From Escherichia coli 042 (GTDB lineage Bacteria; Pseudomonadota; Gammaproteobacteria; Enterobacterales; Enterobacteriaceae): a stretch of 64,000 bases of DNA. The stretch is taken from NCBI RefSeq assembly GCF_000027125.1, contig NC_017626.1. The stretch is one strand, 5' to 3'. The position numbers were made by a program, and so were the translations under genes. Of this stretch, positions 40,597 to 40,722 are shown piece by piece. Below the pieces are notes generated by a model, which saw only the letters and a list, made by a program, of their open reading frames with translations, was not told where the DNA came from and searched no databases. The first letter of the stretch is position 1. Each line of letters opens with the position of its first letter.

Positions 40597-40722
40597 AAGG
40601 GCCTTACGGCCCTTTCGTTTTCCCTTAAAGGGAACTCTCCCTTGGAGAGAATACATATCCCCACACTTGGGGCAAATCAATCAGCCCATTGGGCTGTACA
40701 CCACTCCCCATACATGGGGCAA
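40597..40722 (+). repeat. Array of six consecutive short GC-stem hairpins
   Basis: agggccttacggccct, ttccc-ttaaa-gggaa, ctctcc-cttg-gagag, cccca-cact-tgggg, cagccc-att-gggctg, cccca-taca-tgggg in about 125 bp after the 242-aa gene. Confidence 0.6.

What the first reader, a model, noticed from the sequence alone, without database searches (positions are those of the whole stretch)
40597..40722. Six back-to-back short hairpins downstream of the putative endonuclease gene
Six stem-loops with 5-6 bp GC stems and 3-5 nt loops fill about 125 bp; two are near-identical (tccccacacttggggcaa and tccccatacatggggcaa). This is more than a single terminator needs. It could be a structured ncRNA, a multi-hairpin terminator or insulator, a REP-like repeat cluster or a recombination hotspot.
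Basis: seen in the sequence. Interest (0 to 1): 0.5.

Follow-up and report, generated by a model that had tools for sequence, protein, structure and literature searches.

The report
Conserved seven-hairpin module in a genomic island
The hairpins are real and belong to a conserved 200-bp non-coding module that sits where two converging gene blocks meet in a mobilisable E. coli genomic island; it most likely stops and stabilises transcripts, and it has not been described before.

Summary
There are seven back-to-back hairpins (40596-40741), followed by a conserved AT-rich block that runs to about 40797.

The window is an E. coli chromosome. The array lies in a ROD21-like (EARL) mobilisable island inserted at ssrA. 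It sits between rightward-transcribed restriction-modification cargo and the leftward-transcribed traD backbone.

The same ~200-bp module occurs once per genome in 68 of 5,426 E. coli genomes. It also occurs in six other enterobacterial genera and about 29 metagenome contigs. In every case it has sharp edges and different DNA on both sides.

Stems are 96-100% conserved, while loops and most spacers drift at the rate of the flanks. One lineage carries three compensatory pairs. Related islands without the module have a single h1-like hairpin at the same junction.

Best reading (0.45): h1 is a bidirectional intrinsic terminator, and h2-h7 are back-up terminator and 3'-end-protecting hairpins for leftward transcripts.

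Main rival (0.25): the module is a self-contained gene for a ~160-nt structured RNA. An invariant TTGACA marks one edge and the terminator marks the other, but the -10 element is poor.

A role as single-stranded DNA during conjugative transfer is possible (0.1). A REP-like repeat is rejected. There is no Rfam, plasmid or literature match.

The parts
39870..40559 (+). Last gene of the variable cargo on the integrase side. It encodes 229 aa and is the presumed restriction-endonuclease partner of the methyltransferase at 38836-39801 (- strand).
   Evidence: RefSeq calls it a hypothetical protein. It has no Pfam or NCBIfam match. Its neighbour matches adenine methyltransferase models. Homology with related islands stops just downstream of this gene.
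40596..40615 (.). h1: AAAGGGCC-TTAC-GGCCCTTT, a bidirectional intrinsic terminator with A and T tracts on both sides. It forms the left edge of the conserved module.
   Evidence: The scan calls it a terminator on the + strand. It is the only part shared with related islands that lack the module and with annotated phage terminators. The L002 lineage carries a compensatory G-C to A-T change. The loop is GNRA on the - strand in 22 of 32 variants (read from alignment A2).
40620..40634 (.). h2: TTCCCT-TAA-AGGGAA, the least conserved hairpin.
   Evidence: 92.9% of cells are paired. The register shifts in L002 and L046.
40635..40649 (.). h3: CTCTCC-CTT-GGAGAG.
   Evidence: The L002/L043 lineage has two compensatory pairs (CTACCC/GGGTAG). 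It has a terminator-like T-rich tail on the - strand.
40659..40672 (.). h4: CCCCA-CACT-TGGGG.
   Evidence: The stem is nearly invariant and the loop is variable. It is terminator-like on the - strand.
40682..40696 (.). h5: CAGCCC-ATT-GGGCTG, the most conserved hairpin.
   Evidence: 97.9% of cells are paired. It is terminator-like on the - strand. It is the paralogue of h3, from which it differs by three compensated stem positions (sequence, D1).
40706..40719 (.). h6: CCCCA-TACA-TGGGG, the paralogue of h4.
40728..40741 (.). h7: CACTT-CCTG-AAGTG, the seventh hairpin.
   Evidence: It is conserved in nearly all of the 29 non-decayed variants and 95% of cells are paired.
40742..40797 (-). Conserved AT-rich block that ends the module. 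It contains the invariant sub-blocks AATATTCTCAAGG and TTGTCAAAT. On the - strand there is an invariant TTGACA at 40792-40787. The candidate -10 elements are weak: TATTTA at 40769-40764, or TATATT at 40771-40766.
   Evidence: Column conservation and promoter scoring. The strict promoter scan does not call it. In at least four mutually unrelated right-hand contexts, homology ends within about 8 nt of TTGTCAAAT.
41205..41516 (-). traD-like gene, the first backbone gene on the - strand. Its transcripts run towards the array.
   Evidence: RefSeq annotation. In relatives, pilS-pilV or other cargo lies between traD and the module, always on the - strand.

Best explanation
The array is the transcript-ending module at the point where two converging transcription blocks of a ROD21-like (EARL) mobilisable island meet.

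h1 is a bidirectional Rho-independent terminator. It ends the rightward cargo transcript within 0-40 nt of the stop codon, and it is the final stop for leftward transcripts.

h2-h7 are extra RNA hairpins that act on leftward transcripts from traD, pilS-pilV or a second cargo block. They serve as a cascade of weak back-up terminators and as barriers to 3'-to-5' exonucleases. Backbone transcription therefore does not run antisense into the cargo and the integrase gene, and both converging messages keep stable 3' ends.

**Shown:** the anatomy, the position, the conservation of base pairing, and the generic nature of h1.

**Inferred:** that the active molecule is RNA, that the - strand matters most, and that the outcome is termination and stabilisation.
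For: 1. **Position.** In every locus examined, the module lies between a + strand cargo gene ending 0-40 nt before h1 and - strand genes on the other side.
2. **h1 is a generic terminator.** It has a GC stem flanked by A and T tracts, and the scan calls it a terminator. Related islands without the module carry a single hairpin at the same junction, h1-like in two of the three examined. h1 alone matches features annotated as 'terminator' in Klebsiella phages.
3. **Strand asymmetry.** On the - strand h5, h4 and h3 are followed by T-rich tails and score as terminator-like. On the + strand only h1 does. The 2.1-kb scan found 7 sites against 1.2 expected, and 4 of them are in the array.
4. **Selection is mainly on pairing.**
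   - Non-consensus fraction is 2.9% in stems, 13.1% in loops and 7.9% in spacers.
   - Identity to the window is 96-100% in stems and 80-88% elsewhere, which is about the divergence of the flanking DNA.
   - 96% of cells are paired, and one lineage has three compensatory pairs.
   - The paralogous hairpins h3 and h5 differ at three compensated positions (sequence).
5. **Spacing is not fixed.** Hairpin spacing tolerates 1-2-nt indels and whole hairpins can be lost, as with h2-h3 in L007. This indicates independent hairpins rather than one folded unit.
6. **Relaxed constraint in a remnant.** In a decayed island that has lost the right-hand operon (L006/L058), stems have drifted as much as non-stems, 80-82% against 81%.
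7. **Precedent.** The multi-REP cluster REP325 acts as a combined terminator and mRNA stabiliser. REPs between convergent genes go with raised expression of both genes (bioRxiv 10.64898/2026.03.23.713779).
Against: - A pure terminator does not explain why the 55-nt AT-rich block beyond h7 travels with the hairpins.
- It does not explain why homology ends within about 8 nt of an invariant TTGACA in several unrelated contexts.
- It does not explain why some unpaired stretches (GAATACATAT, CAATCAGACA, AATATTCTCAAGG) are as invariant as the stems.
- About 70% of related E. coli islands manage with a single hairpin: traD homologues occur in 244 genomes and the module in 68. Seven hairpins are therefore not needed.
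- Single-sided stem substitutions give G-U on the + strand in 7 cases and on the - strand in 12 (read), so the data do not single out a strand.
- No expression data exist.
Confidence: 0.45

Rival explanations
1. The ~200-bp module is a self-contained accessory gene for a highly structured RNA of about 160 nt, transcribed leftward. The promoter would have its -35 at the invariant TTGACA (40792-40787). The RNA would run through h7 to h2 and end at h1. Alternatively it could be released from the 3'UTR of the upstream operon by processing in the AU-rich block. It would act through its hairpins, by binding or sequestering a protein, rather than through a long single-stranded seed.
For: - The two edges of the conserved module coincide with the outer edges of a minimal transcription unit. 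TTGACA is invariant at one end and the terminator T-tract lies at the other. At least 10 different left contexts and at least 4 different right contexts share these edges.
- Invariant blocks lie where a -35, a 5' leader (TTCCTTGAGAATATT on the - strand) and two spacers would be.
- The h1 loop is a GNRA tetraloop on the - strand in 22 of 32 variants, through four different sequences: GUAA, GAAA, GGAA and GUGA.
- Presence and absence vary among closely related islands, as for an accessory gene.
- The - strand RNA folds with z = -4.6.
Against: - No good -10 element exists. TATTTA lacks the key final T, and its second position varies in L005, L041 and L046. TATATT with a 15-nt spacer exists only in some variants. 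The strict scan calls no promoter.
- Loops are the most variable class, which argues against loop-specific recognition.
- The U-tract after h1 on the - strand is only 3-5 U.
- Rfam gives no match at E up to 10, and the EARL papers checked do not mention it.
Confidence: 0.25
2. The hairpins work as single-stranded DNA during conjugative mobilisation. They would form in the transferred strand after entry into the recipient. There they would act as a priming signal (a single-strand initiation site of the G4 or primosome type) for complementary-strand synthesis, in an island that encodes no primase.
For: - The island is mobilisable and carries a MOBQ relaxase and TraD (PMC6035254).
- The array lies about 1.5 kb from the hairpin-rich candidate oriT just upstream of mobQ (42150-42290). 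This is probably the side that enters first. That inference rests on analogy with other systems and on a resemblance to the RSF1010 nick region recalled from memory; it was not tested.
- The hairpins fold well with DNA parameters (z = -6.1).
- A CTG, the DnaG start triplet (from memory), lies next to h7 and h5 on the - strand within the conserved CTGATTG.
- Constraint is relaxed in a decayed island that can no longer move.
Against: - Stem substitutions show no strand bias (7 against 12), whereas a single-strand signal should be strand-specific.
- Stems of 5-6 bp are short for known priming signals.
- Most related islands lack the module.
- The module is about 90% identical in islands whose relaxases are very different, such as L035, so it does not co-evolve with the transfer machinery.
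- It has no homologue in 72,556 plasmids.
Confidence: 0.1
3. The module is a DNA-level site. It could be a target or boundary for the recombination events that swap cargo on either side, or a set of palindromic protein-binding sites.
For: Sharp junctions recur at both ends next to many different cargoes. All seven elements are palindromes in duplex DNA as well.
Against: - The seven palindromes have five different sequences, so no single dimeric protein fits.
- Compensatory changes keep the pairing while altering the bases a protein would read.
- Spacing varies by indels.
- No shared motif lies at the cargo junctions left of h1.
- The sharp edges are equally explained by selection on a functional unit.
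Confidence: 0.07
4. The array is a REP/BIME-type dispersed repeat cluster, or a chance cluster of palindromes.
For: It superficially resembles multi-REP clusters between convergent genes.
Against: It occurs once per genome in all 68 E. coli genomes that have it, always in the same island context. The window holds no other copy. Shuffles never approach the observed hairpin density. It is conserved across seven genera.
Confidence: 0.01

Closest known systems
Bidirectional Rho-independent terminators, and tandem terminators, between convergent genes
   Same: h1 has the full anatomy: a GC stem, a tetraloop, and A and T tracts on both sides. It sits at a convergent junction. h3-h5 have T-rich tails on one strand.
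   Different: Seven hairpins are conserved in order and in stem sequence across genera. They travel with a 55-nt AT-rich block as one module. Related islands need only one hairpin.
Multi-REP clusters (BIMEs) such as REP325 of E. coli, described as dual terminator and mRNA stabiliser elements (bioRxiv 10.64898/2026.03.23.713779)
   Same: A run of several short GC-rich hairpins in a 3' untranslated region. The proposed roles are also shared: damping read-through and protecting 3' ends, including between convergent genes.
   Different: The array is single-copy and specific to one island family. It has five different short perfect palindromes instead of one about 35-nt REP consensus, and there is no sign that it is mobile.
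3'UTR-derived or terminator-sharing small RNAs of enterobacteria
   Same: A conserved block ends in the terminator of the upstream operon, and an AU-rich stretch upstream could be a processing site.
   Different: No conserved long single-stranded seed, no convincing promoter, no expression data and no Rfam family.
Single-strand initiation signals of plasmids and phage G4 (from memory)
   Same: Several hairpins within 100-150 nt, near a transfer origin on an element without its own primase.
   Different: The stems are much shorter. There is no sequence similarity to any plasmid in PLSDB and no strand-specific conservation.

Membership tests
Rho-independent (intrinsic) terminator | A GC-rich stem-loop followed directly by a T/U tract | tested here: met
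   h1 is called on the + strand, and h5, h4 and h3 on the - strand. On the - strand h1 is followed by only 3-5 U, depending on the variant. h2, h6 and h7 have no U-tract on either strand.
Rho-independent (intrinsic) terminator | Transcript 3' ends map to the U-tract | not testable with these tools
   This needs Term-seq, 3'-RACE or Northern data from a strain carrying the island.
REP/BIME dispersed repeats | Many copies dispersed around one genome | tested here: not met
   One place per genome in all 68 E. coli genomes with a match. No second copy in the 64-kb window.
REP/BIME dispersed repeats | Match to the REP consensus (an imperfect palindrome of about 35 nt) | not tested
   The consensus is known to me only from memory. 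The hairpins here are 13-20-nt perfect palindromes of five different sequences.
Any curated RNA family (Rfam 15) | A covariance-model match | tested here: not met
   No match overlaps 40596-40800 on either strand, even at E up to 10.
Independent small-RNA gene | Its own promoter upstream of the structured body | tested here: inconclusive
   The -35 TTGACA is invariant at the module edge. The -10 candidates are poor or not conserved, and the strict scan is negative.
Independent small-RNA gene | A terminator at the 3' end and a conserved unit with discrete boundaries | tested here: met
   h1 is at the left edge. Homology between unrelated islands is limited to about 40596-40797.
Type III toxin-antitoxin RNA repeats | Near-identical tandem RNA repeats followed by a co-oriented toxin gene | tested here: not met
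   Tandem Repeats Finder reports nothing. The two 47-nt units are only 70% alike. The genes on both sides converge on the array.
Single-strand initiation (priming) signal | Conservation and function specific to one strand and one orientation | tested here: inconclusive
   Single-sided stem changes keep G-T/G-U pairing on the + strand in 7 cases and on the - strand in 12 (read). Function cannot be tested here.
EARL / ROD21-like genomic islands (the context, not the array itself) | An integrase next to a tRNA or tmRNA gene, a TraD homologue, a MOBQ relaxase and an H-NS homologue | tested here: met
   ssrA lies at 35384-35746 with the integrase beside it. TraD, MobQ, two H-NS family proteins and a 'SEN1982 family lipoprotein' are annotated. 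The family is described in PMC6035254. Relatives sit at tRNA-Asn or tRNA-Phe.

The most novel reading that the evidence does not exclude
The module is not just a terminator. It would be an undescribed accessory element carried between two cargo hotspots of ROD21-like islands. It could be a gene for a ~160-nt seven-hairpin RNA that works through its hairpins, for example by binding a host or island protein. Or it could be a hairpin signal read as single-stranded DNA when the island is mobilised. Either would be a new RNA or DNA element family tied to the biology of mobilisable defence islands.
Probability: 0.3. Interest if true: 0.6.

Novelty: new variant of a known kind. Interest (0 to 1): 0.4.

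Why it matters
ROD21-like (EARL) islands carry virulence and defence genes in Salmonella, Klebsiella ST258 and E. coli. Their non-coding parts have not been described. This module is the only fixed sequence between two regions where cargo is swapped: restriction-modification systems, a TIR protein, ParA, pilus genes and others.

If it is an insulator, it explains how very different cargoes can be inserted without disturbing the integrase or the transfer genes. It would also be a compact natural bidirectional insulator for synthetic biology.

If it is an RNA gene or a single-strand signal, it would be a new functional element of a clinically relevant island family. It also gives a short, specific sequence marker for finding these islands and their cargo hotspots.

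Tried and rejected
- **Rfam, both strands, E up to 10:** nothing in the array.
- **PLSDB plasmids:** no match to the array. The 10-kb region matched only the mobQ, traD and methyltransferase pieces.
- **Phage collection:** only h1 matched, to generic terminators.
- **Literature:** full-text searches for the hairpin sequences found nothing. The EARL/ROD21/ICEKp258.2 papers contain no mention of hairpin, terminator, intergenic region or a mapped oriT. A search for transcriptome papers on ICEKp258.2 was uninformative.
- **REP-like repeat:** rejected on copy number.
- **Tandem repeat or type III antitoxin:** rejected.
- **Small ORFs across the array (23-48 aa):** rejected. 1-2-nt indels in the spacers and the stem-loop substitution pattern are not those of coding sequence.
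- **Strand assignment from G-U versus A-C substitutions:** inconclusive, 7 against 12.
- **C-to-T excess in remnant L006:** an apparent excess on the + strand also occurs outside the stems, so it is a mutational bias and not evidence for + strand pairing.
- **Nested alternative fold:** pairing h4 with h6 around h5, as predicted, cannot be told apart from the local hairpins, because the h4 and h6 stems are identical.
- **CsrA-type sponge:** considered and dropped, because the GGA motifs lie in stems and not in loops.
- **oriT:** considered and dropped. The module is nearly identical in islands with very different relaxases, and a better candidate lies directly upstream of mobQ.

Full report
**What is in the sequence**

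Between the stop codon of a 229-aa ORF at 40559 and position 40741 there are seven consecutive perfect hairpins:

| Hairpin | Coordinates | Sequence |
|---|---|---|
| h1 | 40596-40615 | AAAGGGCC-TTAC-GGCCCTTT |
| h2 | 40620-40634 | TTCCCT-TAA-AGGGAA |
| h3 | 40635-40649 | CTCTCC-CTT-GGAGAG |
| h4 | 40659-40672 | CCCCA-CACT-TGGGG |
| h5 | 40682-40696 | CAGCCC-ATT-GGGCTG |
| h6 | 40706-40719 | CCCCA-TACA-TGGGG |
| h7 | 40728-40741 | CACTT-CCTG-AAGTG |

The near-identical pair, h4 and h6 with the trailing CAA, is real and occurs nowhere else in the window. It is part of an old 47-nt duplication, h3-h4 versus h5-h6, at 70% identity. In that duplication h3 and h5 differ at three stem positions that are compensated on the other arm.

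The cluster is far beyond chance. Six perfect hairpins lie within 200 nt, against at most 1-3 in shuffles and 4 in the next densest place in the window. Folding z-scores run from -4.6 to -6.1 with RNA or DNA parameters on either strand.

**Where it is**

The window is the chromosome of E. coli AHB1. A tmRNA gene (ssrA) at 35384-35746 is followed by a low-GC island. The island contains, in order:
- an integrase
- a DUF3644 protein
- a methyltransferase and its presumed endonuclease partner
- the array
- a traD-like gene on the opposite strand
- a MobQ relaxase
- further on, two H-NS-like proteins, a 'SEN1982 family lipoprotein', and DotA/TraY and TraW homologues

This gene set is that of the ROD21-like (EARL) islands. 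Their describers regard them as mobilisable, because they carry TraD and a MOBQ relaxase but no complete type IV secretion system (PMC6035254). None of the EARL papers I checked mentions these hairpins, a terminator, or a mapped oriT.

**The array is a conserved, discrete module**

Distribution:
- It occurs once per genome, always on the chromosome, in 68 of 5,426 complete E. coli genomes.
- It occurs in Cedecea, Mangrovibacter, Pluralibacter, Buttiauxella, Xenorhabdus and Raoultella.
- It occurs in about 29 metagenome contigs.

Boundaries:
- In related E. coli islands, homology with the window begins exactly at the foot of h1. The cargo to the left is different: Dcm methylase plus ATPase, type III restriction-modification, ParA, a TIR protein, or a membrane protein.
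- All-against-all comparison shows that unrelated islands share only about 200 bp. The shared stretch runs from the foot of h1 to ...GATTGTCAAAT at about 40793-40801.
- At least ten different left contexts and at least four mutually non-homologous right contexts share these edges.
- To the right lie either traD directly, or pilS-pilV, or a recombinase/ParB-like block, or other DNA. These are always on the - strand.

The module is therefore the one fixed piece between two variable cargo regions, at the point where two transcription blocks converge.

**What is under selection**

I aligned 32 distinct copies (A2).
- 96% of stem cells are standard pairs. Sliding the partners by one column drops this to 56%.
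- The fraction of non-consensus bases is 2.9% in stems, 13.1% in loops, 7.9% in spacers and 12.4% in the AT-rich block.
- Relative to the window, stems are 96-100% identical while the rest is 80-88%. That is about the divergence of the neighbouring non-coding DNA and of traD.
- In L005, traD is only 67% identical and non-stem positions 70%, yet stems are still 91%.
- Compensatory changes are few, because divergence is low. One lineage (L002/L043) changed one pair in h1 and two in h3 with no uncompensated change in those stems.
- A remnant island that has lost everything to the right of h6 (L006/L058, the type found in strains LF82 and NRG 857C) shows stems drifting as fast as the rest, 80-82% against 81%.
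- Hairpin spacing tolerates small indels, and L007 has lost h2-h3. The hairpins therefore behave as independent units.
- Some unpaired stretches are nonetheless invariant: GAATACATAT, CAATCAGACA, AATATTCTCAAGG and TTGTCAAAT.

**The role of h1**

Related islands without the module were examined in three strains: FORC_031, E2348/69 and 504239.
- All three have a single hairpin at the same convergent junction.
- In two of them it is AAAGGGCC-loop-GGCCCTTT, that is, h1 alone. Nothing else of the module is present.
- h1 by itself matches sequences annotated as terminators in Klebsiella phages.
- traD homologues occur in 244 E. coli genomes, but the module occurs in only 68.

So h1 is the generic junction terminator of the family. 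h2-h7 plus the AT-rich block are an add-on present in a minority of islands.

**Best explanation (0.45)**

The array is a terminator and insulator module acting on RNA. h1 stops transcription from both sides. On the - strand h5, h4 and h3 are followed by T-rich tails and score as terminator-like, whereas on the + strand only h1 does. The add-on would therefore act on leftward transcripts from the backbone or the second cargo block. It would stop read-through into the cargo and the integrase gene, and protect 3' ends from exonucleases.

Selection on pairing with free loops, independence of the hairpins, and decay when the right-hand operon is lost all fit this reading. The closest described analogue is the multi-REP cluster REP325, reported as a dual terminator and stabiliser. 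In that work, REPs between convergent genes are associated with higher expression of both genes. The array works like such a cluster but is not a REP, because it is single-copy and its palindromes are short and diverse.

**Main rival (0.25)**

The module could be a gene for a structured RNA of about 160 nt read leftward. The argument rests on its boundaries. One edge is an invariant TTGACA (40792-40787, - strand) and the other is the terminator. These are the outer limits of a minimal transcription unit, kept intact next to many different neighbours.

The invariant leader-like block supports it. So does the GNRA loop of h1 on the - strand, seen in 22 of 32 variants through four different sequences.

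Against it:
- There is no acceptable -10 element. TATTTA lacks the key final T and varies. TATATT at a 15-nt spacing exists only in some copies. The strict scan is negative.
- The loops are variable.
- The U-tract is short.
- Rfam gives no match.

**Other rivals**

A single-stranded-DNA role in conjugative entry (0.1) is suggested by three things:
- the mobilisable nature of the island
- the good DNA fold
- the position about 1.5 kb from a hairpin-rich candidate oriT directly upstream of mobQ (42150-42290)

That the array lies on the leading side, and that the nick is on the - strand, are inferences from analogy and from a remembered resemblance to the RSF1010 nick region. Neither was tested. 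Four things count against this role:
- the lack of strand bias in stem substitutions (7 against 12)
- the short stems
- the absence of the module from most related islands
- near-identity of the module in islands with very different relaxases

A DNA-level recombination or protein-binding site (0.07) fits the sharp junctions. It does not fit the five different palindromes or the compensatory changes. A REP-like repeat or a chance cluster is rejected.

**Verdict**

The finding is real, conserved and undescribed. Its most likely function is an elaborate version of something ordinary, a terminator and insulator at a convergent junction. A substantial minority chance remains that it is an unrecognised RNA gene or single-strand signal of a clinically relevant island family. 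Expression mapping and a read-through assay would settle it quickly.

Noticed in passing
window 35747 to about 62000: The low-GC region after ssrA is a ROD21-like (EARL) mobilisable island. In relatives, two regions next to conserved anchors hold different defence-type cargo. Between the integrase and the array: type II or type III restriction-modification, Dcm plus ATPase, a TIR protein, or ParA. After mobQ: ApeA in L002, against a hypothetical protein here.
   Followed up: partly
window 41633-41695 and 56961-57022; partial third copy at 57084-57131: A 63-bp element is repeated within the island at 94% identity. It holds two hairpins, GATTGTT-CAAAA-CAATC and ACAGGG-TTCAT-CCCTGT. One copy lies between traD and mobQ and the others lie about 15 kb away. 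It may be an operator or another regulatory site.
   Followed up: partly
window 56395-56485: A run of four or five CTGACT/AGTCAG inverted repeats about 20 nt apart, iteron-like, followed by a terminator-like hairpin. Function unknown.
   Followed up: no
window 42150-42290: A second hairpin cluster lies directly upstream of mobQ: ACACTGC-TAC-GCAGTGT, GCCTGC-C-GCAGGC, GTTTCC-TTC-GGAAAC and AGTTTTTC-TTAC-GAAAAACT. It is the most likely oriT. On the - strand the first repeat is followed by TAGGTGGGCATT, which resembles the RSF1010 nick region as I remember it; this was not tested.
   Followed up: partly
window 41935-41990: Two more small hairpins have the same TTAC loop as h1: CGCC-TTAC-GGCG and GCCC-TTAC-GGGC followed by TTTTCT. 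The second is called terminator-like on the + strand.
   Followed up: no
window 39870-40559 and 37164-38501: The presumed endonuclease partner of the methyltransferase matches no Pfam or NCBIfam family. The 437-445-aa DUF3644 protein next to the integrase matches no NCBIfam model.
   Followed up: partly
L006 (E. coli STEC299); same type in strains LF82 and NRG 857C: These strains keep a truncated copy of the array (h1-h6) next to an intact type III restriction-modification system. Nine of its substitutions are C-to-T on the + strand against one G-to-A, which is a strand-asymmetric mutation pattern.
   Followed up: no
window 50325-54609: DotA/TraY and TraW family genes, which are IncI-type transfer components, are annotated in an island described as lacking a secretion system of its own.
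   Followed up: no
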